From the IMG/VR virus record IMGVR_UViG_3300045988_148039: a stretch of 49,193 nt of DNA. One strand, written 5' to 3'. Below, one piece after another: positions 2,433 through 33,813 of the stretch (within the stretch, counting starts at the first letter, position 1; each line of letters begins with the position of its first letter). The position numbers were made by a program, and so were the translations under genes. Source of the stretch: a virus. Lineage: Duplodnaviria > Heunggongvirae > Uroviricota > Caudoviricetes. Under the pieces are notes generated by a model. That model saw nothing but the letters and a program-made list of their open reading frames with translations, did no database searches and was not told where the DNA came from.

Positions 2433-4289
2433 CTATATGGTTACGCCTTTACTTATAACTCTACGGCGTCTTCTACGTATACCTGACGAGTTCTGCACAT
2501 ACACATTACCTCGCATTTCCTGTTCAGCAAGCCAGTCAAAATTAGGGTTCAGAATTTCCATCGCGGCAGTTGCATAGTTACGGCAATCAAGAGGCTCGTT
2601 ACGCTCGTAGACTTTCACCCACTTTTCTTTTGTCTGCCCATTTTTATATTCAAATATTTTTTTCTCTGATAATAGCCCTTTAAAATAATCAGTATCATAT
2701 CCTCTGTCAGAATCTAATGGAAAATGCATATAACCAGGACCAGGATCATGTAGCTTAATTCGTGCCATGATGGTCCCTTTACCATCATCAACCCCCAAAT
2801 TAAACAACATAGCGCCTACACGGTTATTATTGCTTGGCTTTCCTATAAACGGTAAACCTACCCCACCACGACCTCTGATAGAATATATTCGCCTTGATTC
2901 TCGCGGCTTAGTAAAGCGATATACCTCTGTCGTAAAATGCCCACCAGAGTCAATACAAACGGAAGAAATCTGTAATTTTCGACCGTCACGAAATGACCAG
3001 CTACGGAGTAAGTATTCATCAAGTTGTTTCCAGACAACATCTTGTGCGGGATCGCCCGGAAATATTTTATATTCAATCCCCCATGATTCCTTACCTTTTC
3101 CCCAACCGACCAATTCACAAACTAAATACGTGTCCTGTACGTCAACACCAGCACTTAACAATAAAACATCATCTGGTAAAAACTCTTCAAACCTTATTCT
3201 GCGTTGCAACAAGTATTCAGGATCGATATCGTCTTTAGCATCCTCTTTCCATGGCTCACCCAGCTTAAGGTTAATAAACTCCATTAATCCATTTTTATCG
3301 CGGTTTCTGGTTGCTTCCGTAAATTCTTCAACCAGCTCTGACAATGCAACCCACGGGGAGTAAAGACTGTTAATATGAAAACCAACAATACCTTTAACTC
3401 CAGTATGTTCAGCTATCCATACCCCCTTCGCCAACCAATCAACGTCTGGTTTACCAGATCCGCGCATAATCCCGCCGCACTCACAGCACTCATATCTGGC
3501 CGTTTCCGGTAACGCCTCACCTGAATCGCTCTTATCCCATCTGACTTGCGACCATTTCATCACCTGCATGGTGCCACAACATGGGCAAGGAACATGGTAG
3601 TAACGCTGATCGGAGAGCTTAAACCACTTGTGGATTTTGCTCGTTTCCTCCAAAACAGGAGTAGAAACAAAAACTTTCTTACGATTATGAAAGTTGGTAG
3701 TACGCTGAATACCTAGTTTTAGTGGGTCGCCCTCCTGCGTCACACCGTAACGATCAATCTCATCAGCTAACAGTATTCGAATTGGCCTGGATGCAAGACC
3801 TGCTGGGGAATTAGCACCAACAAGTGCTATATATCCACCAGCGTAATGCTTCATACGTATAGTCGTGCTGGACTTTTTGGCTGCACCGCGCCCCTCTTTC
3901 CCTTCATGCAGCTTGTGTTTCAAACCAGGGGAATATTTGAACGTCGGATCAATACGCTCTTTTGAAAAAGCCTCAGCCGCCTCTACCGTTGGATAAATCA
4001 TCAACTGAGGAGATGGCTCCTGATCTGCAAAGTAACCCATAACATTTAGCTGTAATTCGGATTTACCAATTTGCGAGCTACATTGCATCACTACTGTTTC
4101 TGTATCAGCGTCACCAATAACATCCATTGGTTCACGCAAATATGGCACTCGGCTTGTACGCCACGGCCCTGGCTCTGGAGACGTTCCCGGCGCTACATGA
4201 CGATACTTATCAGCCCATTCGGAAACAGTTAGCCGTGATTTAGGGCGAAGCGCACGGAAAAAAGCGGTGCTCCATACTGTTTCGCCCAT
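2433..4289 (-). CDS. Terminase large subunit (lambda gpA-like)
   Basis: 618-aa ORF; N-terminal ...VSEWADKY... and overall layout resemble lambda A; followed by W-like and portal genes. Confidence 0.85.
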   Translation of the reverse strand: MGETVWSTAFFRALRPKSRLTVSEWADKYRHVAPGTSPEPGPWRTSRVPYLREPMDVIGDADTETVVMQCSSQIGKSELQLNVMGYFADQEPSPQLMIYPTVEAAEAFSKERIDPTFKYSPGLKHKLHEGKEGRGAAKKSSTTIRMKHYAGGYIALVGANSPAGLASRPIRILLADEIDRYGVTQEGDPLKLGIQRTTNFHNRKKVFVSTPVLEETSKIHKWFKLSDQRYYHVPCPCCGTMQVMKWSQVRWDKSDSGEALPETARYECCECGGIMRGSGKPDVDWLAKGVWIAEHTGVKGIVGFHINSLYSPWVALSELVEEFTEATRNRDKNGLMEFINLKLGEPWKEDAKDDIDPEYLLQRRIRFEEFLPDDVLLLSAGVDVQDTYLVCELVGWGKGKESWGIEYKIFPGDPAQDVVWKQLDEYLLRSWSFRDGRKLQISSVCIDSGGHFTTEVYRFTKPRESRRIYSIRGRGGVGLPFIGKPSNNNRVGAMLFNLGVDDGKGTIMARIKLHDPGPGYMHFPLDSDRGYDTDYFKGLLSEKKIFEYKNGQTKEKWVKVYERNEPLDCRNYATAAMEILNPNFDWLAEQEMRGNVYVQNSSGIRRRRRRVISKGVTI

Positions 4290-4294
4290 GAGGT

Positions 4295-4855
4295 TTATTC
4301 TTCCTGCTTAATAAATCGGGATTCCTGGAGCGCCTGAAGCGCAAAATTAATCTCGTCTTCAATAATGCGTTCGATCTCCCTGGCTGTTTTGCCTTCACAA
4401 CGGGGAGCTGCTCTTGGAGCAATACTAAATAAGCGGCTACGCAATTCATTAGCTGCCAGAAATGCATCATCCCTGACCGCATCTTTAGCGATGAGAGAGC
4501 CTTCCTTTTCTTCAAATTCAAGGCGTTTCAGCTTTGCCTGATAAATTTTTTCTGCGGTCTTAGCCTTGTTGAATTGCACCGCAACACCGGAAGTACCACC
4601 AGCTAATCCGGCATCATCAGCGGGTAACTCTGGTTGTTCCGAAGATATCCCATGCCCTCTTTTTCCGTTTTCAGCAGATACCTCACGACCAACCTGTCGG
4701 CTCGCTTCATAAGCCGCACTAGCTTTATCAAAATCCAGCTTGCCGCTTTTCAGCACTGGAATACGACCGGAACGACAGAGCTTCGTAACCATTGCCGGAG
4801 AAATACCTTTCCGGCGGGCAAACTCTGACTTACTAACGATGGCCATTACTTGCAA
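4295..4855 (-). CDS. Terminase small subunit (Nu1-like, N-terminal HTH)
   Basis: 186-aa ORF immediately upstream of the large terminase; N-terminal HTH-like segment SKSEFARRKGISPAMVTKLCRSGRIP. Confidence 0.6.
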   Translation of the reverse strand: MQVMAIVSKSEFARRKGISPAMVTKLCRSGRIPVLKSGKLDFDKASAAYEASRQVGREVSAENGKRGHGISSEQPELPADDAGLAGGTSGVAVQFNKAKTAEKIYQAKLKRLEFEEKEGSLIAKDAVRDDAFLAANELRSRLFSIAPRAAPRCEGKTAREIERIIEDEINFALQALQESRFIKQEE

Positions 4856-5436
4856 CCATTAGCAAGATACTGAACAAATCCCTCATGCGTTTCATGCGCG
4901 TCGTGGTACTGACGATAAACATCCAGCAACAATGCAATTTCCATATCCGTCGCGGGAATACGTTCTTTATCAATAGCCAGGTACTTAATTTGAACAACAG
5001 GGGAAGAATTATCGTCTTCTTCCCGCGGCTGTTCATCGCTTAACATTTCGTCAAGCTCTGCATCATTAAACCCAAGCAGATCAATATCAAAATCATCATC
5101 CATTAACTCTTTGACTTCTTCGGCCAGAAGCTGCATATCCCAACCAGCATTTAAGGCCAGCTTGTTATCTGCAATCCTGTAAGCCTTCTTCTGTTTTTCA
5201 GAAAGGTTACTCAACCGAATCGCCGGAACTTTATCCATTTCCAGAATTTCGGCTGCTGCAAGCCGACCATGCCCCGCAATCAGTTCATTCTTTTCATCGA
5301 TCAGCACAGGATTAGTGAAACCGAACTCACGGATACTGTTCACCAACTGTTCAACTTGCTCATCTGAATGAGTCCGTGAATTTTTGGCATATCTGAGCAG
5401 CTTACCGACTGGTAAATATTCGATTTTTAGAGCCAT
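4846..5436 (-). CDS. ParB-like nuclease domain protein (paralog 1)
   Basis: 196 aa; ParB N-terminal-domain-like region (...LIAGHGRLAAA...KKAYRIADNKLALNAGW...); overlaps the small terminase start. Confidence 0.65.
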   Translation of the reverse strand: MALKIEYLPVGKLLRYAKNSRTHSDEQVEQLVNSIREFGFTNPVLIDEKNELIAGHGRLAAAEILEMDKVPAIRLSNLSEKQKKAYRIADNKLALNAGWDMQLLAEEVKELMDDDFDIDLLGFNDAELDEMLSDEQPREEDDNSSPVVQIKYLAIDKERIPATDMEIALLLDVYRQYHDAHETHEGFVQYLANGCK

Positions 5437-5993
5437 TTTTTAACCGCCATAACACAACAGGTTAAAGAAAACTGTTTAACTTATTGATACTAAAAGAGAA
5501 AAATGACGATCTTTTTACTCATAAAAAATCACACAAACCAGCATAATTATCTGATTTTATTAAGTTTTTATAAGTAAAAAGGATCTTGCGATGGTGTTTT
5601 GGTTAAAAGATTGGATGTATTTACATGATTTATAACGATTTTTATCAAAACAACATCACATTGGTTAAAGATCTGCACGTATCTTGATGATCTAAAAGAA
5701 AATTTTCTACTTTCTTTTTACCAGCACAAATACAGCAAAAAATCACATTTTCCCGATATTTTTCAACGAGATGAGTAAATTTCTTTTACCGCAACTTTTA
5801 ACCTAACTTTTTTCACGTTTAGCTAGCCGAACATCGGGGTTCGAATGACCCGCATCCAACGCTTTTGGCCAGAAGGACCCAATTCTGCCGGACGATGAAA
5901 CGATGCTCGTGCTCCCCCACAGACAGCCAGCGAGCGACGCTACAGAACACAGTGAATACACTCTGCATAACAACACCATCAACCACACGATGA

Positions 5994-6713
5994 TTAACGA
6001 GAGAAGGTCTTAGAAAGAATGTCATCAATCGCCTTTGTGACTTCATCAGCAAACGCACCCTCACCAGCACGCAGCGCCACGCCATGCCAATCAAGACGCT
6101 GCGAATAGTTAGGTTGCTGGATAAACGTAAGGATCAACGTAGGACGCCGCCCAACGCGCTGCCAGACGCCTGGTTGAAGCGGGTTACTTGTACCAGGTCG
6201 AACAACAAAAAACTCCGTAGGCTTGCCCTGACGGCGATTTTGATGCGCATCTCGCTGAACTCTTAGGCCAGATAAGACCTGCTGTAATTGCCCCCGCGAA
6301 ATATTCCCGTATTTGTCCAGCTTTGCGCCGGGACCAGGAGCAAGCTGCCAGCCGTTAGGCAAATATCCACCAGCCCTTAGCGCCCCTTCTGAGCGTTTGT
6401 ACTGTCGTTGGCCACCTTCGATTTGCGGAGTCAACGTTACAGGGGCTGGCGTTCCTCCCCATTCACGAGCATACACAATGGCTGTAGGATCACTCTTCTT
6501 TGCGGCCAAAACGTAAGTAGAGTTCTGAATCCACGGCGTGGGCCTGTCAAATACCCGATTAATTTCATTCTTAATCGCAGCCTGAGAAGCCTTTGCCGTT
6601 CTGGTTGCCGCAAGCGCCATTGCGAACGGCAATTCGCGTTCTTCAAGGCGCTGGAGTTGTCGTTGAATATCCTGAGAAGAAAAATCCATCTTTATCTCAA
6701 TTCTGTCAGCCAC
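5994..6713 (-). CDS. Hypothetical protein co-oriented with the ParB-methyltransferase
   Basis: 239-aa ORF, 17 bp downstream of the methyltransferase stop; no family recognised. Confidence 0.45.
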   Translation of the reverse strand: MADRIEIKMDFSSQDIQRQLQRLEERELPFAMALAATRTAKASQAAIKNEINRVFDRPTPWIQNSTYVLAAKKSDPTAIVYAREWGGTPAPVTLTPQIEGGQRQYKRSEGALRAGGYLPNGWQLAPGPGAKLDKYGNISRGQLQQVLSGLRVQRDAHQNRRQGKPTEFFVVRPGTSNPLQPGVWQRVGRRPTLILTFIQQPNYSQRLDWHGVALRAGEGAFADEVTKAIDDILSKTFSR

Positions 6714-6729
6714 CAGCGCCTCCTACACA

Positions 6730-8109
6730 CTACTTAATCAACGGCCGGAAAGCCGCCAGCACATCATCAGATCGTCCGATTGTTGAACCACCAGGCAACG
6801 GCAACTCAAACTCAAAACGAACAGCTTTCTCCAGACTCGCCCAACTAAGGGAATCATCGTTAATGACGTGCAAATACCAGCTCTTACAGTTGAATATTGA
6901 CCGCTTAATCCTGAAACCATGTACACGACACAACTGCTTCACTTCATCATCAGAGTGAAACTTCTGGTAAAACCAGTGCCCCTTCCGGTACAACGCGGTA
7001 AAACCGTTATGATCAATAAAATAAAGCCGGCTTTTGGAACTCGCAGCTTGTGTTTGCTTCAGGACTGTTTCCAGCTCTCCACGGCTACGGCCAGAAAAGA
7101 ATATTGACCCACCAGCTTTACACAAGCCTTTCAGAACCGTCAGAACGGACCATTCAGCCTCGACACTATCGACCGAGTTCAAAACGCTATCGCAAATCAC
7201 GTAGTCGTAACGCCCTCGCGTTTTTAAGTCGTCCACCAGCGTATCAATCATCCGGTTTGTTGCGGTCCTATCCAGAGTGTTTCCAGCGCCCTTACGGCGG
7301 AAAAGCTCGAGATCATGCAGGTTATATCCCTTTGCCCTGAGCATTCGCGCGTAGTCTCCCTGCCCCGAACCAAAATCAATTCCTCTTGGCGTCTTGGCAA
7401 TGATCGGGAGGATCAACGACTCATACAGGTTTGATTTCAGGCTGCCACCATTACGCAACCGCATAAGCTGCGCATACGTCTGGATGTATGTTGTTTTCTC
7501 CAGATGAGAATACTCAAATACACCATAAGTTTTATTCAGATAACTTTGGTATTTTTCCTTCTCAACATCAGGGATCACAAACACCGTTAGCGGTGTGCGC
7601 GTCATCTTCGCTGCTAATGCATACTGAGCACAGTGAATAACCTCGCCAGACTGAGTCGCAACACAACCACCCCACGGACCATACTTGATAACCAGTTCCG
7701 CTATGTTCTTTCGAACATATGCCATTTTCGCGCGCATATTGCCTGAGATCTGGCTTGCCGATACCTGAACAAAACCATGCTTATCTTCCAGACCGGACAC
7801 CCTGCAACGCTCATCTCCGCTATCAAAATCCGTTCCGTTATGCAGTTGGTTAAACCGTACTTCGTCGTATACCGTCGTTTCACAGGGCAACACATACACC
7901 GCAGCACGCGTTATTCCCAACTTACGTAGCGCCTTCGTCCTTTGGTGTCCCGCCACCAGCAAATCGCCGCGCACTATCAATGGCTTCACAAGCCCCAGCT
8001 CCCTGACGCTTTCCGCCAGCCTCGCAAGATCATCTTCACCGATAAAACGCGGGTTATATTCCGCGCCGCGTAGGTGCGTTATGTCGTAATTGAGGTGAAG
8101 CATCAGCAC
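6730..8109 (-). CDS. ParB N-terminal domain fused to a SAM-dependent methyltransferase (probable DNA methyltransferase)
   Basis: 459 aa; N-terminal ParB-like region (LVAGHQRTKAL) and central motif-I-like IDFGSGQGDYARML; overlaps the upstream ParB-like gene by 7 nt. Confidence 0.65.
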   Translation of the reverse strand: MLMLHLNYDITHLRGAEYNPRFIGEDDLARLAESVRELGLVKPLIVRGDLLVAGHQRTKALRKLGITRAAVYVLPCETTVYDEVRFNQLHNGTDFDSGDERCRVSGLEDKHGFVQVSASQISGNMRAKMAYVRKNIAELVIKYGPWGGCVATQSGEVIHCAQYALAAKMTRTPLTVFVIPDVEKEKYQSYLNKTYGVFEYSHLEKTTYIQTYAQLMRLRNGGSLKSNLYESLILPIIAKTPRGIDFGSGQGDYARMLRAKGYNLHDLELFRRKGAGNTLDRTATNRMIDTLVDDLKTRGRYDYVICDSVLNSVDSVEAEWSVLTVLKGLCKAGGSIFFSGRSRGELETVLKQTQAASSKSRLYFIDHNGFTALYRKGHWFYQKFHSDDEVKQLCRVHGFRIKRSIFNCKSWYLHVINDDSLSWASLEKAVRFEFELPLPGGSTIGRSDDVLAAFRPLIK

Positions 8110-8726
8110 ACCTCCCCAGCCAGCAATGCGGATACAAATCCGATATAGCTGCCATTATCATCAACATAACGAGACACCGCGCAGTCAAAACGATCCGCTT
8201 CCTCATCCGTTGCCGGGATTTTATGACCTCCAAATGACAGGTACTGAACTTTTACGCCTGATTTGGCCTCATCCTTCTCAAATGGGATATCCATACCCTC
8301 TGTGTCATCGTAGACCGCCGCACTCAATAAGTTATCCAGTTCGCGCTGAGTAAAACCAATTGAGTCCAGAGCAAAATCATCGGCCGCAAGATCTGCAAGC
8401 TCCGCGCTTAACAACTCTTCATCCCAACCAGCATTCAGCGGAATACGGTTGTCGGCCAGACGATATGCCTTCTTCTGATTCTCCGTTAGCCCAGCCAGAA
8501 CAATGCAGGGAACATCATCCATCCCCAACTGAGTGGCCGCAGCAATTCGACCATGACCAGCAATTACAACGTTGTTCTCGTCTATCAGGATCGGATTAGT
8601 CCATCCGTACTCCTGTATGCTGGCAACAATCTGATCTACCTGCTCCACGGAGTGTGTGCGAGCGTTCTTTTCATAACCAATCAACACAGAAAGTGGTAAA
8701 GAAACCACATTAAGTTGTTTTGTCAT
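8103..8726 (-). CDS. ParB-like nuclease domain protein (paralog 2)
   Basis: 207 aa; alignable along its length with the 4846..5436 product (VEQ...IAGHGR...NQKKAYRLADNRIPLNAGW, IPATDEE). Confidence 0.65.
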   Translation of the reverse strand: MTKQLNVVSLPLSVLIGYEKNARTHSVEQVDQIVASIQEYGWTNPILIDENNVVIAGHGRIAAATQLGMDDVPCIVLAGLTENQKKAYRLADNRIPLNAGWDEELLSAELADLAADDFALDSIGFTQRELDNLLSAAVYDDTEGMDIPFEKDEAKSGVKVQYLSFGGHKIPATDEEADRFDCAVSRYVDDNGSYIGFVSALLAGEVC

Positions 8727-8960
8727 GCCGTTTATCCGCTAAAATCCCCTCGCTTGTGCAAGCAAGTGGGCCTCGGTTTGTATCCACGGCACCCTGTGGG
8801 TATGAATGACTGTCGTCAGGTCGCAACTGACGGCGGTCGCCCACCTTCCAGTAATAAAAAAGCCACCAGCATTAACTCCACAATGAGCTGGAGTTAATGA
8901 GGCAGCTTTGGTTTGCGCATTATCGCAGCCCCTGATAAGCACAAGAGCTGCTGTAATGCG

Positions 8961-9674
8961 TTACTCTGGTATCAAACAGATGTGGCCGTTATTTACCTCA
9001 ATGCGAGAGTATCTCGGCTTACCATCCACGATTCCGGTAATGACAAGTTCGCCATCAGGCGACCATTCTTCTTTGTCGTCTTCAAGTACCGCGCCTTCTG
9101 GCAGATCAATACAAGCAAAAACAGGACAGCCAGGATGACGTTTATCCTCCATCGCAATCAGCATCGACTCACCGAACCACTCTGTAGTAGCACGGCCATC
9201 AGCCGCCTGATAGTGAATCAGATACTGGTTTTCGCCATTTGCATACTGAGCACGGGCTTGAACTTCTCCCCATTCGTCACTGATACGCATTGTTACCAGT
9301 TGGGATAATTCAAACTTAAACGGAACAGCCTCGGCACCAATAGATATCGGTGAGTTTTCTCGCTGCTCTGGACCTTCACGCTTCACAATTTGAACATCTT
9401 TGACGAGCCAATCACCTGTGTTATCTACTTTTCGATACTCATCGGTATCAGGTAACTCAATAACACTCATCCCATCCGGGCAAAGCAACGATACATCTTT
9501 CGAAACACTGCGGATAATGCCGTTATTGTCATACATCATCTTTAAAGTGTGAGGCTGAAATTTCTTCTGCTCCTCATACCAATTTCTTCCGTCTTCAGTA
9601 AAAAGCGGTAGCACATCTGGATGTTTGCCGCGGGGATCAATAAGCGGCACACTGATATTTTTTAAATGCATCAT
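8961..9674 (-). CDS. Tail-fiber-assembly-like protein (Tfa-type N-terminal domain, divergent C-terminal half)
   Basis: Starts MMHLKNI...NWYEEQKKFQP...LKMMYD like the two Tfa proteins in the invertible segment; C-terminal 130 aa unrelated to them. Confidence 0.5.
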   Translation of the reverse strand: MMHLKNISVPLIDPRGKHPDVLPLFTEDGRNWYEEQKKFQPHTLKMMYDNNGIIRSVSKDVSLLCPDGMSVIELPDTDEYRKVDNTGDWLVKDVQIVKREGPEQRENSPISIGAEAVPFKFELSQLVTMRISDEWGEVQARAQYANGENQYLIHYQAADGRATTEWFGESMLIAMEDKRHPGCPVFACIDLPEGAVLEDDKEEWSPDGELVITGIVDGKPRYSRIEVNNGHICLIPE

Positions 9675-11065: not shown

Positions 11066-11173
11066 CTCCGGTTTAACCAGGGCGGGTATCGCTCGGTTTC
11101 GGGTATAACCATAGGAAATTTTTTCCCACCTGTAAAGCACTTTTTATATAAATCTATAATTATATAATTCTAT
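11066..11173 (-). promoter_or_regulatory. Conserved promoter/leader cassette, copy A (AT-rich palindromic motif plus ~75-nt leader ending in the RBS)
   Basis: Near-identical to 18236..18345 and 27641..27750; contains TATAAATCTATAATTATATAA and ends ...CCGGAGA just before the ATG at 11057. Confidence 0.7.
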
Positions 11174-11757
11174 GACATTTGCCAGAGAGCATCATGCAAC
11201 TGGATACCTCCGTTGCACTGGTTGCCCCAGCCATGCCAGCCATCAGGTAAATCACCGCGAGCAAACAGCTCAATACGAGGAACATCGCCTAACAGCTTTA
11301 CCAGCTTGTCACGGACCACATCAGGCTTCCGAGAATGCTCCAGACGAGGCGATGTAAACGACTGAATGATCCCCGCATCAAGACGGGTCGGCAGTTTGCC
11401 TTTTACCGCAAACAAGCAGTCTTCACTGTTTGCACGAGTCATATGCCCCATCCCCATCACCAGCTTATCTGGTTGTCGGCTACCACATTTGTTCCATGTG
11501 AAGCCCTTCATGGTCATCAGCCTGAATCCCCATGCTTTCACCACCAGCAACGCTTCTTCTGGCTGAGTCGGAACCCACCACATGGCCAACAAACACGATT
11601 CAGGATTAGCAAGCTGCCAGACAGGAATACGAGCAATCTCCTCAGCTTTCATCGTTGGATACTTAAAACCAGCTCCACGATTCCCATCCTTACACTTGTC
11701 TTTGTATTCCCAGGGGGGATCTGCATAAATCAGATTAAACAATGCAATTTCCTCCAT
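11170..11757 (-). CDS. MT-A70-family N6-adenine DNA methyltransferase
   Basis: 195 aa with N-terminal catalytic DPPW motif (LIYADPPWEY). Confidence 0.75.
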   Translation of the reverse strand: MEEIALFNLIYADPPWEYKDKCKDGNRGAGFKYPTMKAEEIARIPVWQLANPESCLLAMWWVPTQPEEALLVVKAWGFRLMTMKGFTWNKCGSRQPDKLVMGMGHMTRANSEDCLFAVKGKLPTRLDAGIIQSFTSPRLEHSRKPDVVRDKLVKLLGDVPRIELFARGDLPDGWHGWGNQCNGGIQLHDALWQMS

Positions 11758-12065: not shown

Positions 12066-12141
12066 TGGTGGCCCCTACCGGATTTGAACCGATGACCGTG
12101 CGATTATGAGTCGCCTGCTCTAACCACTAAGCTAAGGGGCC
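12066..12141 (-). tRNA. tRNA, anticodon CAT (Met, or lysidine-modified minor Ile2 given resemblance to E. coli ileX as I recall it)
   Basis: Reverse complement folds as a cloverleaf: 7-bp acceptor stem GGCCCCT/AGGGGCC, T-arm with TTCAAAT loop, anticodon loop CTCATAA, encoded 3' CCA. Confidence 0.8.
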
Positions 12142-22184: not shown

Positions 22185-22853
22185 ATGGAGTCTCGACAAA
22201 TGACTATCTCTGTAGGTATTTTCAACGGAAAAGGCGGCGTAACCAAATCAACAATTGCCCGTGCTTTAGCAGTTGCTTATGCAAAGGCCGGCTGGAATGT
22301 ATGCCTGATCGATATGGATGTGCTTAACGGAACGGTAACGCGTTGGGTACAACGCAGAATGGCCAACAATATCGAACCTGCAATCGCGGCGCAGCCGTGC
22401 GGCACGCCATCACAAGTCCAGAAAATCATCGAATCAGAAGTATACGACCTGGTTATCGTCGATGGCGGTGCCTACGCATCTGAATCAGTACCGAAGCTCT
22501 CTGAATTTCTGGATATGGTTATTTTGCCAACCAGATTCTCTACCGATGACCTGGAAACCACCGTTAACACAGCTCATGGCATCGTTAAAAAGGGTGTGCC
22601 AATCAAGAAAATTTGCATGGTGTTCTCAGGCGCGGCTGAAAACGAAGCCGACTACATTGAAGCCCAAGAGTACCTGGCTAATACGCCATACTTTGTTGTC
22701 GATAAGTACATTCCCCACAAGCCAGCTCTGAGCAAAGCTCAGGATAAGGGCTTAAGCCTCATTGAATGCTCATACGTTGCGCCACGCAAAAAGGCAGACG
22801 ACGTTATTCAGGGGATTATCAACCAGCTTGAGGCTCTGACTACTGCCGCGTAA
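22185..22853 (+). CDS. ParA/ParF-type partition ATPase
   Basis: 222 aa with deviant Walker A NGKGGVTKST. Confidence 0.75.
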   Translation: MESRQMTISVGIFNGKGGVTKSTIARALAVAYAKAGWNVCLIDMDVLNGTVTRWVQRRMANNIEPAIAAQPCGTPSQVQKIIESEVYDLVIVDGGAYASESVPKLSEFLDMVILPTRFSTDDLETTVNTAHGIVKKGVPIKKICMVFSGAAENEADYIEAQEYLANTPYFVVDKYIPHKPALSKAQDKGLSLIECSYVAPRKKADDVIQGIINQLEALTTAA

Positions 22854-29905: not shown

Positions 29906-30886
29906 TTAATGTTGGAGTGATTTCCAGGTCTTTCTTAGCCTGTTATAACGCTGCTCAACGAGGGAGCGTAAATATGCAAGGTCAGCTCCAGGATACATGC
30001 CATCAGCAAATTCCTGGCTAACCTCTCTAGTGATTTGATGACGAAGTTCGGCCTCTCCCTTTTCCCGAACAAGACGCGCAGCTCTCTCCGCTGCTTTCTG
30101 TTTTGCCTTTATCTCTCTGGCCGTCTTCCTCTGACGCCATACATTCTCCATCTGCTCCTGAATAACAATACGCTTATAATCAGCCTCCGTTATCGCTTTT
30201 TTAAGCCGTTCGCTATTCTTCGCATTGAAGTAATTAAGTTTCTGGCTAACCGCACGTCTCCATGCTTGTTCAGTAATACCAACGGTTTCCAGCAGTTGAT
30301 CACGAATCTCTATTTTCGCTGGCCAATACTGTTTATTCACCCGATCCCAGCGACGTTCATAATCAATAAAACCTAACGCTTTCAGTTGCGACAACGCCCT
30401 TGTACAGCGCGTTATAGACTTGTTCCCAGCTTCGGATACGGTAGACAGGCCGCAAAAATCAGCCAACGCCTCAGCACTAGCCAGAACCCGCTTAGAAATG
30501 ATGTTTACATGGTGCAAAATCGCAGCGATCACAGCATTAATCGCCCGACGACGATGCTCGTTTATCCGGCGCTTCCGCTCTGACGGTTGATTAACGTAGA
30601 ACGCAACCTCACACGTAAGATCACGCCCATTAATGCGCTGTAAAGCATCAGATAACACCAGCGGCAGCTTGTGCGTATGGTGCTTTGGAGGCTGGAACTC
30701 CGGCGACAAATTACAAACGTAAGCTGAACGTAGAGACGGCATTGGTCTATCCATATGTTCGCTCTTGCGTCCACGGAAAACCAACGTATAATGGGAGTTG
30801 TCGAGGCGCCCATGGATTGTTGTTGTTGGTTTTCCGTGGATGTCGCAAGAAGCCCGCAGATTTATCTGCGGGCTTTTTGTTTCCAT
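29906..30886 (-). CDS. repA: Plasmid replication initiator RepA (IncFII/RepFIIA-type); true start possibly internal (MDRPMPS, about 30754)
   Basis: Central segment NKSITRCTRALSQLKALGFIDYERRWD resembles R100/R1 RepA1 KLSITRATRALTFLSELGLITYQTEYD as I recall it; basic C-terminal half; length about 280 aa from the internal start. Confidence 0.7.
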   Translation of the reverse strand: METKSPQINLRASCDIHGKPTTTIHGRLDNSHYTLVFRGRKSEHMDRPMPSLRSAYVCNLSPEFQPPKHHTHKLPLVLSDALQRINGRDLTCEVAFYVNQPSERKRRINEHRRRAINAVIAAILHHVNIISKRVLASAEALADFCGLSTVSEAGNKSITRCTRALSQLKALGFIDYERRWDRVNKQYWPAKIEIRDQLLETVGITEQAWRRAVSQKLNYFNAKNSERLKKAITEADYKRIVIQEQMENVWRQRKTAREIKAKQKAAERAARLVREKGEAELRHQITREVSQEFADGMYPGADLAYLRSLVEQRYNRLRKTWKSLQH

Positions 30887-31067: not shown

Positions 31068-31622
31068 TCAATGATTCCCAGCCGGAAACCTGCGGTAAAG
31101 CGTGGATAAGGTAACATCGAAGATAATCGCTATCTGCTTACGTGAAACACCATTCGCAATAAGCCTTCCGATCTGTTCCCATTGCTCTGGTGCCAATTTT
31201 GAGCGGCGTCCTCCTATCCTGCCGTTAGCCCTTGCCACCGCCAATCCTGCACGCGTTCTTTCAATCATATTTTCCCGCTCCATCTCTGCGACTGCACTCA
31301 GCATCGTGTAGGCAAAGCGGCCAATTGAAGTGCTAATTTTTATCCCTTCCGTAATCGAAATAAACTCAATGTTGTTTGATAAAAAATAATTAAGTAAATC
31401 AACAAGATGAATCAGAGAGCGCCCCATTCGGTCCAGCTTCCAGACAATAACCGTATCGCCCGGCCGTAACACCTTCAGTAGCTTATCAAGTCCTGGTCGT
31501 TTTGATTTAGCACCGGATATTTTATCTTCAAAAATCCGGTCACATCCTGAACTCCTGAGCGCCTCCAGTTGTAATTCCAAATTCTGGTCAAAAGTTGACA
31601 CCCTCGCATAACCATATTGCAT
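31068..31622 (-). CDS. Serine recombinase, Gin/Hin/Pin/Cin-family DNA invertase
   Basis: 184 aa; MQYGYARVSTFDQNLELQ, VWKLDRMGRS and C-terminal HTH closely parallel Gin as I recall it. Confidence 0.9.
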   Translation of the reverse strand: MQYGYARVSTFDQNLELQLEALRSSGCDRIFEDKISGAKSKRPGLDKLLKVLRPGDTVIVWKLDRMGRSLIHLVDLLNYFLSNNIEFISITEGIKISTSIGRFAYTMLSAVAEMERENMIERTRAGLAVARANGRIGGRRSKLAPEQWEQIGRLIANGVSRKQIAIIFDVTLSTLYRRFPAGNH

Positions 31623-31693
31623 ACTTTCTAAACCGCGATTGTTGCTAAAAGCGGGAAAAAATATCGTTCAGACGACACAGAGGCAATTCGCAA

Positions 31694-31720
31694 AAACCTC
31701 GGTTTACAGGAAACGGTAAA
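31694..31720. repeat. Invertase crossover site, left copy (AAACCTCGGTTTACAGGAAACGGTAAA)
   Basis: Inverted copy of 34751..34775 with one mismatch in the shared core; encodes ...LGLQETVN... in both fiber reading frames. Confidence 0.8.
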
Positions 31721-32720
31721 CAGGGCTGGTAACGCCGTGCAAAAAAATGGCGATACTTTGTCCGGTGGGCTTACTTTTGAAAATGACTCAATCCTTGCCT
31801 GGATTCGAAATACTGACTGGGCGAAGATTGGATTTAAAAATGATGCCGATGGTGACACTGATTCATACATGTGGTTTGAAACAGGCGACAACGGCAATGA
31901 ATATTTCAAATGGAGAAGCAAACAAAGCACCACAACAAAAGACCTGATGAATCTTAAATGGGATGCTTTGTCTGTTCTTGTTAAAGCCCTTTTCAGCAGT
32001 GAAGTAAAAATATCGACAGTCAATGCACTGAGGATATTTAATTCATCTTTTGGTGCCATTTTTCGCCGTTCTGAAGAATGCCTGCATATCATCCCTACAC
32101 GAGAGAACGAGGGAGAAAATGGTGATATAGGGCCACTACGCCCCTTTACGCTTAATCTTAGAACTGGTCGGATAAGCATGGGGCATGGTCTTGATGTTAC
32201 AGGGGATATATTTGCAAACCGTTTTGCAATTAACAGTAGTACCGGCATGTGGATTCATATGCGTGACCAGAATGTTATTTTGGGACGCAATGCGGTATCC
32301 ACCGATGGTGCGCAGGCATTACTTCGTCAGGACCATGCTGATCGCAAATTTATGATTGGTGGGCTGGGAAATAAGCAATTTGGCATCTACATGATTAATA
32401 ACTCAAGGACAGCCAATGGCACCGATGGTCAGGCGTACATGGATAATAACGGGAACTGGCTTTGCGGTGCGCAAGTTATTCCCGGCAACTATGGCAATTT
32501 TGATTCCAGATATGTGAAAGATGTTCGACTTGGTTCACAGCAATATTATGGAGTGAACAACTGGCAAACATGGAATTTCCAGTGCCCGTCAGGTCATGTA
32601 TTGTCTGGTATTAATGTTCAGGATACAGGGTCCAACTCTGCCGATAATATAGCGGGCGTTTATTACAGACCCGTTCAAAAGTATATAAATGGCACCTGGT
32701 ATAATGTAGCGAGCGTTTAA
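31694..32720 (+). CDS. Alternative tail-fiber C-terminal segment (no own start; fused to the constant part after inversion)
   Basis: Frame open upstream to the crossover site with no start codon; C-terminus ...[11 protein letters not shown] matches the current fiber's ...INGTWYNAGSI. Confidence 0.7.
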
Positions 32721-32721
32721 T

Positions 32722-33249
32722 ATGATGCACTTAAAGAACATAAAAGCGGGTAACGCTAAAACACTGGAGCAGTATGAGTTAACAAAGAAGCACGGAGTCA
32801 TCTGGCTTTACTCTGAGGACGAAAAAAACTGGTATGAGGAAGTGAAAAACTTTCAGCCAGACACAATAAAGATTGTTTACGATGAAAATAATATTATTGT
32901 CGCCATCACCAAAGATGCATCCACGCTTAACCCTGAAGGTTTTAGCGTCGTTGAGGTTCCCGATATAACGGCCAATCGTCGGGCCGATGATTCCGGTAAG
33001 TGGATGTTTAAGGACGGAGCTGTGGTTAAACGGATTTATACGGCAGACGAACAGGAACAACAGGCCGAATCACAAAAGGCCGCGTTACTTTCCGAAGCAG
33101 AAAGCATTATTCAGCCACTGGAACGCGCTGTCAGGCTGAATATGGCGACGGATGAGGAACGCGCACGACTGGAGTCATGGGAACGCTACAGCGTTCTGGT
33201 CAGCCGTGTGGATACAGCAAAGCCCGAATGGCCACAAAAGCCTGAGTAA
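32722..33249 (+). CDS. Tail fiber assembly chaperone (for the alternative fiber tip)
   Basis: 175 aa starting MMHLKNI; paralog of 33278..33811. Confidence 0.75.
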
Positions 33250-33277
33250 AAATTAAGGCCCAATATCGGGCCTTCTC

Positions 33278-33811
33278 TCATTCTGGTTGTTCGGGAAACG
33301 TTACTGGCAGGCTGGAGGTGTCTGTGGATTCGACTTTCTGCGCGTAAAGCATCCACTCGGTTAATTTTTGTTTATTCTCGTCGGAAATGATGCCCAGCCG
33401 TAGCTGTGAGTCCCATAGCTGGGTTTTATCCCTGACAAGTTGCAACAGGCTTTGCTTTTCATTCTCTGCCTGCTGCCTCTGTTCCTCCTCGGTATAAGTT
33501 CGCTTTATCACTACGCCATCTTTGAACATCCATTTACCCGAAATATCAGCCCGGCGATTTGCTGTAATATCAGGAACCTCAACGACGCTTGCGCCTTCTG
33601 GATTAATTGCTGAAACATCCTTTTCAATACAAATAATAACGTCGTTGTGGTCATAGACCATTTTCAACGTATCAGGCTGAAAGTTCTTTTGTTCCTCATA
33701 CCAGTTTTTCCCATCCTCTGTATAAAGCCATTTGATGTTAAATTGTTTCGTTAGCTGGTATTGCTCTTTTGTTTTAGGGTTGCCAGCAGTAATATTTTTT
33801 AAGTGCATCAT
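33278..33811 (-). CDS. Tail fiber assembly chaperone (for the currently expressed fiber tip)
   Basis: 177 aa starting MMHLKNI; immediately downstream of the fiber gene. Confidence 0.75.
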   Translation of the reverse strand: MMHLKNITAGNPKTKEQYQLTKQFNIKWLYTEDGKNWYEEQKNFQPDTLKMVYDHNDVIICIEKDVSAINPEGASVVEVPDITANRRADISGKWMFKDGVVIKRTYTEEEQRQQAENEKQSLLQLVRDKTQLWDSQLRLGIISDENKQKLTEWMLYAQKVESTDTSSLPVTFPEQPE

Positions 33812-33813
33812 AA

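What the first reader, a model, noticed from the sequence alone, without database searches (positions are those of the whole stretch)
4846..8726. Two ParB-like nuclease paralogs bracket a ParB-methyltransferase island beside the terminase
The two ParB-like proteins are clearly alignable along their length. Between them sit a ParB-domain/SAM-methyltransferase fusion, a 239-aa unknown protein and a 550-bp AT-rich non-coding stretch (5437..5993). This looks like duplication followed by insertion, and it places DNA-modification genes directly upstream of the packaging genes. The AT-rich stretch is also the most likely place for the packaging site or late promoter.
Basis: partly seen in the sequence, partly recalled or inferred. 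Interest (0 to 1): 0.6.

Follow-up and report, generated by a model that had tools for sequence, protein, structure and literature searches.

The report
Phage cos site and ParB–methyltransferase cassette
This stretch of a common ~48-kb E. coli phage-plasmid holds the DNA-packaging (cos) site, flanked by two anciently diverged ParB-like genes; one of them travels with a ParB-fused methyltransferase as a two-gene cassette that many unrelated phages keep just before their packaging genes, and whose chemistry is still unknown.

Summary
Two ParB/Srx-fold proteins (196 and 207 aa; 48% identical, E 3e-62) flank a ParB–class I SAM-methyltransferase fusion, a 239-aa protein and a 557-bp non-coding stretch, all on the minus strand upstream of terS and terL.

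"Duplication followed by insertion" is not supported. ParB-A and ParB-B are separate, old orthologous lineages (third codon positions 35% identical).
- ParB-B plus the fusion is a mobile two-gene cassette. It abuts a small ParB in 54 of 64 viral loci, and at least four terminase families follow it.
- The core packaging module is 239-aa gene – cos – ParB-A – TerS – TerL. It also occurs without the cassette, which behaves as a clean ~2-kb indel.

The packaging-site guess is well supported. A 12-nt cohesive end, GGTCATTCGAAC (5839–5850), is marked by the deposited ends of five phage genomes from three lineages and is conserved in diverged relatives. An enriched array of GGT(T)A3-5G repeats follows it. 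No promoter was found.

The methyltransferase domain resembles small-molecule and tRNA enzymes, not known DNA methyltransferases. DNA modification is inferred only from association. Interest is moderate.

The parts
8103..8726 (-). ParB-B: a 207-aa orphan ParB/Srx-fold protein. It has an N-terminal NTP-binding-type domain with NxRTHS and AGHGR motifs, a NAGWD helical linker and a conserved ~50-aa C-tail. It is the first gene of the accessory two-gene cassette.
   Evidence: phrog_620 E 4e-74 and ParB_N E 4e-5. Its stop overlaps the fusion start (TGATG). It clusters with cassette-type small ParBs. It is absent, together with the fusion, from related phages.
6730..8109 (-). Fusion protein (459 aa from the GTG start, 457 aa from the ATG at 8103). 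It has a ParB_N domain (~1–75), a conserved middle alpha/beta domain (~100–200) whose secondary-structure order resembles ParB but which lacks the Arg, and a class I SAM methyltransferase (~230–420).
   Evidence: Pfam Methyltransf_23 E 8e-8 and ParB_N E 3e-5. phrog_5475 E 1e-265. AF2 pLDDT 94.3. Foldseek top hits are small-molecule and tRNA methyltransferases. At least 715 homologs of conserved length.
5994..6713 (-). 239-aa protein with an HK97 gp10-like (neck/head–tail joining) fold flanked by long N- and C-terminal helices. It is the last gene before cos.
5869..5882 (-). Conserved TTGGGTCCTTCTGG block about 20–30 nt upstream of cosN. It is a candidate cosQ-like or terminase-contact element.
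   Evidence: Invariant in relatives that are about 75% identical, while the flanking sequence diverges. Recognisable in L030 and at the MD8 right end.
5839..5850 (-). cosN: the inferred 12-nt cohesive end GGTCATTCGAAC.
   Evidence: vB_YpM_41 and 39 start with it and vB_YpM_44 ends with it. The MD8 right end and the X29 left end align to the same position. It is unique in the window. The 18-mer GGGTCATTCGAACCCCGA occurs in 23 viral contigs, always in the same gene context.
5437..5838 (-). AT-rich cosB-like region. It carries six GGT(T)A3-5G repeats: three proximal on the minus strand (5795, 5783, 5714) and three distal on the plus strand (5663, 5601, 5460).
   Evidence: GC 0.28–0.31. 6 of the window's 27 motif hits fall here, and 0 of 2000 composition-matched simulations reach 6. 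Relatives carry the equivalent arrays GGTTAACAA / TTGTTAACC. A 90-bp deletion (5623–5712) is tolerated in vB_YpM_44.
4846..5436 (-). ParB-A: a 196-aa orphan ParB/Srx-fold protein with the same architecture as ParB-B. It is the first gene after cos and is a core gene of the packaging module.
   Evidence: phrog_620 E 9e-75 and ParB_N 33.8 bits, above the cutoff. Its stop overlaps the TerS start (TAATG). Orthologs sit in the same position in every cosN-bearing contig with enough downstream sequence, whether or not the cassette is present. Vibrio phage X29 has the same layout.
4295..4846 (-). Small terminase subunit (183 aa from the ATG at 4846) with an N-terminal HTH.
   Evidence: phrog_57 E 7e-42. 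Aligned with the TerS of L029, L030, X29 and MD8.
2433..4289 (-). Large terminase subunit of the lambda gpA type.
   Evidence: GpA_ATPase E 7e-76 and GpA_nuclease E 2e-84.

Best explanation
The region is the packaging end of a ~48-kb myovirus-type phage-plasmid. It combines two units.

(1) A core packaging module: a gp10-like neck gene (239 aa), then cos, then ParB-A, TerS and gpA-type TerL. cos consists of a conserved upstream block, cosN with a 12-nt cohesive end at 5839–5850, and an AT-rich array of inverted GGT(T)A3-5G repeats that most likely bind TerS.

(2) An accessory, horizontally mobile two-gene cassette, ParB-B plus a ParB–(ParB-like)–class I SAM-methyltransferase fusion. It is inserted just upstream of the core module, in the same terminase-proximal slot it occupies in many unrelated phages.

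ParB-A and ParB-B are ancient paralogs or independent acquisitions. They are orphan proteins with an NTP-binding ParB/Srx fold and no HTH. They have nothing to do with plasmid partition.

Inferred mechanism: both genes are expressed late, with each pair translationally coupled. The small ParB acts as an NTP-dependent partner that loads or activates a DNA-acting enzyme on replicated phage DNA shortly before packaging. The closest experimental precedent is the set of ParB activators of phage T-dioxygenases. In this reading ParB-B serves the methyltransferase fusion, which adds a methyl mark of unknown and probably non-canonical chemistry. ParB-A has a cassette-independent, packaging-linked role.

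Shown: the gene anatomy, the homologies, the position of cos, the mobility of the cassette and the age of the paralogy. Inferred: DNA as the substrate, the activator role and TerS as the repeat binder.
For: cos:
- Record ends of vB_YpM_39, 41 and 44 differ by exactly the 12-mer.
- The MD8 right end and the X29 left end align to the same site.
- The site and its upstream block are conserved in relatives whose flanks diverge.
- Repeat enrichment: 6 of 27 window hits lie in 402 nt, and 0 of 2000 simulations reach that.
- Relatives carry arrays of a variant motif, and the TerS recognition helix differs in step: SPAM in the window, SRAA in L029 and L030.

Cassette:
- A small ParB abuts the fusion in 54 of 64 IMG/VR loci and lies within 800 nt in 8 more.
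- The next large ORF downstream is a TerL from at least four Pfam families in at least 31 of 44 loci.
- Annotated examples are Bacteroides phage BS-TP3 and E. coli lambdoid prophages.

Accessory status:
- 23 contigs carry the cosN 18-mer in the layout p239–cos–ParB-A–TerS–TerL where the fetched sequence reaches that far. Only 4 of them carry the cassette.
- Homology with cassette-less relatives starts at window 6724. In L109 it resumes at window 9088–9302.
- GC3 is 0.47–0.53 for the cassette and 0.38–0.41 for ParB-A, terS and terL.

Old paralogy: identity matrix and NJ tree; third codon positions 35% identical.

Not partition:
- TIGR00180 scores 40 and 30 bits against a cutoff of 58.
- No HTH was detected.
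- ParA lies at 22185–22853 on the other strand.

Link to DNA modification:
- The small ParBs match the N-terminal module of ParB–DNA-methyltransferase fusions (phrog_498 E 1e-52, PADLOC MTase_II E 3e-40).
- A 61%-identical small ParB in vB_EcoS-613R10 is followed by a TET-associated glycosyltransferase and then terS.
- ParBs that have a nucleotide-binding domain and a C-terminal domain but no DNA-binding domain activate phage T-dioxygenases (PMC13229309). Their published N…R…S…R residue spacing resembles N19/R21/S34/R58 here.
Against: - The methyltransferase domain has no (D/N/S)PP(Y/F) or PC/ENV motif. Its 50 best Foldseek matches are small-molecule, peptide or tRNA methyltransferases at 11–17% identity, with no DNA methyltransferase among them.
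- No methylation data exist for this element.
- No experiment assigns a function to any phrog_620 protein.
- ParB-A orthologs keep their C-tail in phages that lack the cassette near cos. The tail is therefore not a fusion-specific docking element, and the partner of ParB-A is unknown.
- Assigning the repeats to TerS rests on three sequence types only.
- The genome ends come from database records, not from raw reads.
- The similarity of the fusion's middle domain to ParB is not significant by sequence (hhalign E 0.32 and 0.019).
Confidence: 0.55

Rival explanations
1. A single ParB-like gene duplicated in place, and the fusion, the 239-aa gene and the AT-rich DNA were then inserted between the two copies, forming an island.
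For: The two proteins align along their whole length. They share a C-tail that X29-type ParBs lack. A ~2-kb presence/absence polymorphism does exist in this neighbourhood.
Against: - A and B are as far from each other (49%) as from small ParBs of unrelated phages.
- A groups with the A orthologs and with X29. B groups with the cassette-type ParBs.
- Synonymous sites are saturated.
- The indel comprises ParB-B plus the fusion, not the material between the copies.
- p239–cos–ParB-A is conserved as a block in 23 contigs and, in part, in Pseudomonas and Vibrio phages.
Confidence: 0.07
2. The ParB-like proteins are packaging accessories. They would be NTP-regulated nickases or clamps that help terminase recognise, cut or hold cos DNA, comparable to the HNH endonucleases that sit next to terminases in HK97-like phages. 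On this view the methyltransferase is a passenger.
For: - ParB-A is translationally coupled to TerS.
- It is invariably the first gene after cos, with or without the cassette.
- A prophage ParB–methyltransferase of B. cereus, encoded next to terS, has non-specific nicking activity (PMC3592412; PMC5512222).
Against: - gpA-type TerL has its own nuclease domain.
- Small-ParB cassettes precede at least four TerL families, not only the gpA family typical of cos phages. That argues against a cos-specific role for ParB-B.
- There is no genetic or biochemical evidence for this role.
Confidence: 0.2
3. The fusion methylates something other than DNA, such as a protein (terminase, portal or a host factor), a nucleotide or a small metabolite. 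The ParB/Srx domains would then serve only as ATP/CTP-binding regulatory modules.
For: - All the top fold matches are small-molecule, peptide or tRNA methyltransferases such as Trm9, METTL6 and GNMT.
- The motif IV region reads DSVLNSVD, as in Methyltransf_11/23 enzymes.
- Srx and SerK show that the ParB fold can act in non-DNA chemistry (bioRxiv 10.1101/2025.10.10.680097).
Against: - Close relatives of the small ParB are consistently coupled, by fusion or adjacency, to DNA-modifying enzymes: N6_N4 methyltransferases and a TAGT glycosyltransferase.
- The cassette sits strictly next to the terminase genes and is expressed late.
Confidence: 0.2
4. The ParB-like proteins and the repeat-rich AT stretch form a plasmid partition system, with a centromere-binding ParB and parS repeats, for the prophage-plasmid state.
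For: The element is a plasmid prophage with IncFII-type RepA and ParA. The proteins are annotated as ParB. The non-coding stretch carries an array of short repeats.
Against: - No HTH or DNA-binding domain is detected, and TIGR00180 scores fall below the cutoff.
- ParA is 13 kb away on the other strand, with its own small downstream partner.
- The same genes and repeat arrays occur at the left genome end of the linear Vibrio phage X29 record, and the 239-aa gene occurs next to cos in integrated Pseudomonas prophages.
- The repeats start immediately next to cosN.
Confidence: 0.03

Closest known systems
ParB-CTPase-fold / Methyltransf_23 fusions of phages (catalogued in bioRxiv 10.1101/2025.10.10.680097)
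   Same: The same domain pair, PF02195 plus PF13489, in one polypeptide, enriched in phages and prophages.
   Different: The preprint lists the architecture and calls it a predicted DNA methyltransferase without testing it. Shown here in addition: the fusion is obligately paired with a separate small ParB, it sits in front of the terminase genes, it has an extra conserved middle domain, and its fold is not that of known DNA methyltransferases.
ParB–N6_N4 DNA methyltransferase fusions (phrog_498; B. cereus Bce_0392 ParB-MTase)
   Same: The small ParBs are homologous to the N-terminal ~150 residues of these fusions (E 1e-52). These fusions are also encoded next to terminase genes (PMC3592412).
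   Different: Here the ParB module is a free-standing protein with its own C-tail. The neighbouring enzyme has no PF01555 domain and no DPPY-type motif.
ParB activators of phage thymine dioxygenases (5mYOX/ParB176; PMC13229309)
   Same: A ParB with a nucleotide-binding domain, a helical linker, an unstructured segment and a C-terminal domain, but no DNA-binding domain. It is encoded beside a post-replicative DNA-modifying enzyme. It has Asn and His/Asp substitutions in the CTPase motifs, and terminases frequently co-occur with these pathways.
   Different: There is no dioxygenase here and the partner is a methyltransferase that carries its own ParB domain. Sequence homology to ParB176 could not be tested because its sequence is not held.
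Bacteriophage lambda cos (cosQ–cosN–cosB) with Nu1/gpA terminase
   Same: gpA-type TerL, a TerS with an N-terminal HTH, a 12-nt cohesive end, a conserved element upstream and inverted repeats downstream between cosN and the first gene.
   Different: A ParB-like gene lies between cosB and terS. The repeat region is about 400 nt, compared with about 120 nt in lambda (from general knowledge of lambda). The IHF-consensus match is not conserved. The polarity of the overhang is unknown.
HK97 gp10 family neck proteins (SaPI1/80alpha neck, PDB 9mu2 chain P)
   Different: The protein is twice as long, with 40-residue and 30-residue terminal helices. It has no Pfam match. It is encoded next to cos rather than among the head–tail connector genes.

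Membership tests
ParB/Srx (ParB-CTPase fold, PF02195) | Significant match to the ParB N-terminal domain profile | tested here: met
   ParB-A scores 33.8 bits against a cutoff of 26.3. ParB-B (23.9) and the fusion (24.3) fall just below it at E about 4e-5. phrog_620 gives E 1e-74 for both small ParBs. hhalign of the small-ParB profile against fusion domain 1 gives 98.5% probability.
ParB/Srx (ParB-CTPase fold, PF02195) | Conserved Box II (P-motif) arginine and Box I-like motif | tested here: met
   AGHGR, with R58 invariant, and NxRTHS in 11 small ParBs. AGHQR is invariant in 56 fusions.
ParB/Srx (ParB-CTPase fold, PF02195) | NTP binding or hydrolysis | not testable with these tools
   This needs DRaCALA, ITC or similar assays. 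ATP binding has been reported for some bacterial ParB–SAM-methyltransferase fusions.
Canonical partition ParB (ParABS; TIGR00180) | Score above the family cutoff, with HTH DNA-binding and dimerisation domains | tested here: not met
   TIGR00180 scores 40.1, 29.6 and 16.4 bits against a cutoff of 58.45, and only the N-terminal domain is matched. Pfam reports no HTH.
Canonical partition ParB (ParABS; TIGR00180) | Encoded in an operon with parA | tested here: not met
   The ParA-family gene lies at 22185–22853 on the plus strand, 13 kb away. The neighbours of the ParB-like genes are terS and the methyltransferase fusion.
ParB–DNA methyltransferase fusion (PF02195 + PF01555) | N6_N4_Mtase domain with a (D/N/S)PP(Y/F) catalytic motif | tested here: not met
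   Pfam finds no PF01555 hit. No such motif occurs among the invariant columns. No DNA methyltransferase is among the top 50 fold matches.
ParB-CTPase–Methyltransf_23 fusion | PF02195 and PF13489 in one polypeptide, encoded by a phage or prophage | tested here: met
ParB activators of DNA-modifying enzymes (5mYOX-associated ParB) | Nucleotide-binding domain plus C-terminal domain without a DNA-binding domain, encoded next to the client enzyme | tested here: inconclusive
   The architecture and adjacency fit. The client differs, sequence homology to the characterised ParB176 could not be tested, and activation is untested.
Lambda-type cos site | Virion DNA ends at a fixed site with a short cohesive overhang | tested here: met
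   The evidence is indirect. Five deposited genomes from three lineages begin or end at the homologous nucleotides, and the Yersinia phage records differ by exactly the 12-mer.
Lambda-type cos site | gpA-family large terminase and HTH small terminase immediately downstream | tested here: met
   A ParB-like gene is interposed between cos and terS.
Lambda-type cos site | cosB: terminase-binding repeats and an IHF site | tested here: inconclusive
   The repeats are enriched and conserved as arrays. The binding protein is not identified. The IHF consensus at 5477–5489 is neither enriched nor conserved.
HK97 gp10 family (neck protein) | gp10 fold | tested here: met
HK97 gp10 family (neck protein) | Sequence-family membership and presence in virions | tested here: not met
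   No Pfam family matches at E up to 10. Presence in virions cannot be tested here.

The most novel reading that the evidence does not exclude
ParB-B and the ParB–(degenerate ParB)–class I methyltransferase form a two-component, NTP-gated machine. It would install a non-canonical methyl mark (not m6A, m4C or m5C) on phage DNA just before packaging. That would make it a widespread, uncharacterised anti-restriction or epigenetic module carried in front of the terminase genes of phages from Bacteroidota to Proteobacteria. ParB-A would be a packaging-coupled paralog that works with terminase at cos.
Probability: 0.3. Interest if true: 0.75.

Novelty: new variant of a known kind. Interest (0 to 1): 0.42.

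Why it matters
ParB-fold proteins are now recognised as NTP switches well beyond chromosome segregation, and one phage ParB has been shown to activate a DNA dioxygenase.

This locus offers a compact and very common test case. About 1.3% of complete E. coli genomes carry it, including the reference strain ATCC 25922. It contains two diverged orphan ParBs, one tied to a methyltransferase of unknown substrate and one tied to terminase. Natural relatives that lack the cassette provide built-in controls.

If the cassette modifies DNA, it defines a new enzyme class for phage DNA methylation and a new use of the ParB fold. If it does not, it points to late-stage protein or metabolite methylation in phage assembly.

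Independently of that question, the cos site defined here is useful for handling this phage-plasmid family, for example in packaging, transduction and re-orienting genome records.

Tried and rejected
- A homolog search with ParB-A returned only proteins at least 98% identical, so it gave no information on diversity.
- I tested whether the fusion's middle domain is an internal ParB duplication. hhalign was not significant (E 0.32, and 0.019 against the small-ParB profile). Only the secondary-structure order supports the idea, so it is reported as a hypothesis.
- I proposed that the shared C-tail of the small ParBs is a docking element for the fusion. This was rejected: ParB-A orthologs in phages with no cassette near cos keep a nearly identical tail.
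- The IHF site at 5477–5489 matches the consensus, but it is not enriched and not conserved.
- The sigma-70 promoter and intrinsic terminator scans of 5300–6100 found nothing. Rfam found nothing.
- I considered membership of the pSLy3 phage-plasmid group. pSLy3 belongs to the SSU5 supergroup, and I did not pursue a match.
- No paper on the Yersinia phages was found, and the supplements holding the ParB176 sequence are not held.
- PADLOC matched only the ParB module of a Type II methyltransferase model. No defence system was indicated.

Full report
**Observation.** All genes from 2433 to 9674 lie on the minus strand. In the direction of transcription they run as follows:
- a tail-fibre-assembly-like gene (9674–8961);
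- ParB-B (8726–8103, 207 aa);
- a 459-aa ParB_N plus Methyltransf_23 fusion (8109–6730);
- a 239-aa ORF (6713–5994);
- 557 nt of non-coding DNA (5993–5437);
- ParB-A (5436–4846, 196 aa);
- TerS (4846–4295);
- a gpA-type TerL (4289–2433).

The two small ParB-like proteins align end to end: 48% identity, E 3e-62. GC content drops to 0.28–0.31 only between about 5437 and 5830. The part next to the 239-aa gene has ordinary composition. The description is therefore confirmed, with small corrections.

**What the element is.** The window is about 99% identical to non-mobilizable plasmids of about 48 kb, found mostly in E. coli, including the plasmid of strain ATCC 25922. It is equally close to the Yersinia phages vB_YpM_39, 41 and 44. 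It encodes an IncFII-type RepA (29906–30886), a ParA ATPase (22185–22853, plus strand), a DNA invertase and a contractile tail. It is a phage-plasmid. 71 of 5426 complete E. coli genomes carry the cassette described below, and 75 of the 76 places are on plasmids.

**The packaging site.**
- The records of vB_YpM_41 and 39 begin with GGTCATTCGAAC. The record of vB_YpM_44 ends with the same 12 nt and begins right after them. This places a 12-nt cohesive end at window 5839–5850.
- The right end of Pseudomonas phage MD8 (…GGGTAATTCGAGC) aligns to the same nucleotides. So does the left end of Vibrio phage X29 (CCCCGGCTTTCGTCTAGCT…).
- The block AGCGTTGGATGCGGGTCATTCGAACCCCGA and an upstream block TTGGGTCCTTCTGG are conserved in relatives that are about 75% identical, and in the more distant L029 and L030. 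The surrounding non-coding DNA diverges.
- The 12-mer is unique in the window.
- Downstream, the AT-rich part carries six GGT(T)A3-5G motifs. Three near cosN lie on the minus strand and three distal ones on the plus strand. That is 6 of the window's 27 matches within 402 nt, and none of 2000 composition-matched simulations reached six.
- L029, L030 and X29 carry larger arrays of a variant motif, GGTTAACA. Their TerS recognition helix also differs from the window's: SRAA in L029 and L030, SPAM in the window. This fits TerS as the binding protein, but three sequence types are weak evidence.
- vB_YpM_44 lacks 90 bp (5623–5712), including one repeat, and was still isolated as a phage.
- No sigma-70-like promoter, terminator or Rfam family was found. 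An IHF-consensus match at 5477–5489 is neither enriched nor conserved.

The guess about a promoter is not.

**The small ParB-like proteins.**
- Both match phrog_620 over their full length (E about 1e-74). Both also match the N-terminal ~150 residues of ParB–DNA-methyltransferase fusions (phrog_498 E about 1e-51; PADLOC MTase_II, N-terminal part only).
- They keep NxRTHS and AGHGR motifs (R58 invariant), a NAGWD…GF helical linker, an acidic unstructured stretch and a conserved ~50-residue tail, …IPxT(D/E)xE…Y…G…GFV.
- They score below the cutoff for partition ParB, show no HTH, and lie 13 kb from parA.
- They are orphan ParB/Srx-fold proteins, not centromere-binding proteins.

**The fusion.**
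- The family has at least 715 members of very uniform length.
- The AlphaFold model is confident (pLDDT 94.3). It shows a ParB_N domain that is homologous to the small ParBs (hhalign 98.5%).
- It then shows a strongly conserved middle domain whose strand–helix order repeats that of ParB_N. This domain lacks the arginine, and its sequence similarity to ParB is not significant.
- The third domain is a class I methyltransferase with an IDFGSGQG SAM motif.
- The 50 best Foldseek matches in the PDB are small-molecule, peptide and tRNA methyltransferases such as Trm9, METTL6 and glycine N-methyltransferase. None is a DNA methyltransferase, and there is no DPPY-type or PC/ENV motif.
- The architecture has been listed as phage-enriched and "predicted DNA methyltransferase" without any test (bioRxiv 10.1101/2025.10.10.680097).

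**A conserved cassette in front of terminases.**
- In Bacteroides phage BS-TP3, in E. coli lambdoid prophages and in several metagenomic phages the order is small ParB, fusion, an optional small ORF, TerS, TerL.
- One contig, L021, starts with an Illumina adapter 150 nt upstream of the small ParB. There the cassette therefore lies at the physical end of the genome.
- 64 IMG/VR loci carry the fusion (not de-replicated). A small ParB abuts it (−58 to +26 nt) in 54, lies within 800 nt in 8, and was not found in 2.
- The first ORF of at least 380 aa downstream begins 241–2963 nt after the fusion. It is a large terminase in at least 31 of 44 de-replicated loci, and these terminases belong to four or more Pfam families (GpA, Terminase_6, Terminase_3, TerL_ATPase).
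- The cassette is thus tied to the start of the packaging operon whatever the terminase family.

**Evolution of the paralogs.**
- L029 and L030 (fusion 69% and 65% identical) keep the whole layout, including both small ParBs and the long non-coding stretch.
- ParB-A is 65% and 58% identical to its positional orthologs, and ParB-B 62% and 56% to its own. A against B is 49%, no closer than either is to cassette ParBs of unrelated phages (43–50%).
- In a neighbour-joining tree A groups with X29-type ParBs and B with cassette ParBs. The tree has no bootstrap support values.
- DNA identity is 55%, and third codon positions are 35% identical.
- Vibrio phage X29 has the order genome end, repeats, small ParB, TerS, gpA-type TerL, and no fusion.
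- The cosN 18-mer occurs in 23 viral contigs. Wherever the fetched sequence extends far enough, the order is 239-aa gene, cosN, ParB-A, TerS, TerL. Only four contigs carry ParB-B plus the fusion upstream, although at least nine others have 2.8–10 kb of upstream sequence.
- Homology between the window and these cassette-less relatives starts at 6724, just before the 239-aa gene. In L109 it resumes at window 9088–9302.
- The variable unit is therefore the ~2-kb ParB-B-plus-fusion cassette. Its GC3 (0.47–0.53) also differs from that of ParB-A, terS and terL (0.38–0.41).
- "Duplication followed by insertion between the copies" is not what happened. An accessory cassette carrying its own small ParB sits next to a core module that already has one.
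- Whether the cassette was gained or lost in particular lineages cannot be resolved here.

**The 239-aa protein.**
- Homologs in the Pseudomonas phages MD8 and LESphi2 are also the last gene before cos and terS, after the lysis genes.
- The model (pLDDT 86.7) has no significant Foldseek match.
- It is most likely a virion neck or head–tail joining protein that belongs to the morphogenesis genes, not to a modification island.

**Mechanism.**
- Both gene pairs are translationally coupled: TGATG for ParB-B and the fusion, TAATG for ParB-A and TerS.
- Close relatives of the small ParB are fused to N6_N4 DNA methyltransferases.
- One relative, in vB_EcoS-613R10, is followed by a TET-associated glycosyltransferase and then terS.
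- Phage ParBs with the same domain plan (a nucleotide-binding domain and a C-terminal domain but no DNA-binding domain) activate thymine dioxygenases on double-stranded DNA. ParBs and terminases are among the domains that most often co-occur with these dioxygenases (PMC13229309 and its preprint).
- By this association I favour a model in which the small ParB is an NTP-dependent loader or activator for a DNA-acting enzyme that works on replicated DNA just before packaging. ParB-B would serve the fusion.
- ParB-A keeps its C-tail in phages with no cassette near cos. It must therefore have a cassette-independent role, probably linked to packaging.
- The main counter-evidence is the fold of the methyltransferase. 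A protein or small-molecule substrate, or a nickase or clamp role in packaging, remain serious rivals.

**Comparison and novelty.**
- Every component belongs to a known kind: ParB/Srx fold, class I methyltransferase, lambda-type cos, gp10-like neck protein. The fusion architecture has been catalogued.
- What I did not find described in the papers searched: the obligate pairing of a small ParB with the fusion, its terminase-proximal position across phyla, the non-DNA-methyltransferase fold, the coexistence of two old small-ParB lineages around cos, and the cos site of this phage-plasmid family.
- I rate it a new variant of a known kind, of moderate interest. The value lies in a tractable test of what orphan phage ParBs and this methyltransferase do.

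**Limits.**
- The genome ends come from database records.
- The locus counts are not fully de-replicated, and the viral scan may have been capped at 80 loci.
- The tree has no support values.
- No biochemical property was tested.

Noticed in passing
window 11170–11757 (−): A separate MT-A70-family (adenine) methyltransferase of 195 aa (Pfam E 3e-23). The element therefore already carries a conventional orphan DNA methyltransferase about 2.5 kb upstream of the cassette.
   Followed up: partly
window 12066–12141 (−): A single tRNA with a CAT anticodon. ARAGORN calls it tRNA-Met, the Yersinia phage record calls it tRNA-Met, and RefSeq calls the ATCC 25922 plasmid copy tRNA-Ile. It may be a lysidine-modified Ile tRNA.
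   Followed up: no
window 8961–9674 (−): A 237-aa ORF that combines an N-terminal tail-fibre-assembly domain (Caudo_TAP, phrog_136) with a C-terminal phrog_1935 domain. It lies far from the tail-fibre genes. The ATCC 25922 plasmid has a different, shorter gene at this position, so this is a variable region next to the cassette.
   Followed up: partly
window 5623–5712: vB_YpM_44 lacks these 90 bp of the cosB-like region, including one GGTTAAAG repeat, yet was isolated as a phage. Not all the repeats are essential.
   Followed up: partly
L024 (Escherichia phage vB_EcoS-613R10) 5031–6705: A small ParB whose N-terminal domain is 61% identical to that of ParB-A. It is followed by a 310-aa TET-associated glycosyltransferase (PF20691, E 1e-34) and then terS and terL, and no dioxygenase is annotated nearby. 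This is another ParB-plus-DNA-modifying-enzyme pair in the same slot.
   Followed up: partly
L019/L020 5997–6233 and L030 490–774: An Acb2/Tad1-hairpin (anti-CBASS/Thoeris sponge-like) gene lies immediately upstream of the small ParB of the cassette in two unrelated phages. This suggests that the slot is an anti-defence hotspot.
   Followed up: no
L021 1–32: The metagenomic contig starts with an Illumina TruSeq adapter sequence (GACTGGAGTTCAGACGTGTGCTCTTCCGATCT). This is untrimmed adapter, and it incidentally marks a physical DNA end 150 nt upstream of the small ParB gene.
   Followed up: partly
window 6725–8730 compared with 4300–6720: Among complete E. coli genomes the cassette is at least 99% identical in 69 of 71 records. 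The adjacent core region (239-aa gene – cos – ParB-A – TerS) is at least 99% identical in only 42 of 72. The accessory cassette is the more uniform of the two.
   Followed up: no
window 31068–31622 (−) and neighbouring tail-fibre genes 31628–36132: A Gin/Cin-type serine invertase lies next to oppositely oriented tail-fibre and tail-fibre-assembly genes. An invertible host-range segment as in Mu and P1 is likely.
   Followed up: no
window 22185–22853 (+) and the small ORF downstream: The ParA-family ATPase has only a small (~82 aa) downstream partner in the ATCC 25922 annotation. This suggests a type Ib partition system that is unrelated to the ParB-like genes of the finding.
   Followed up: partly
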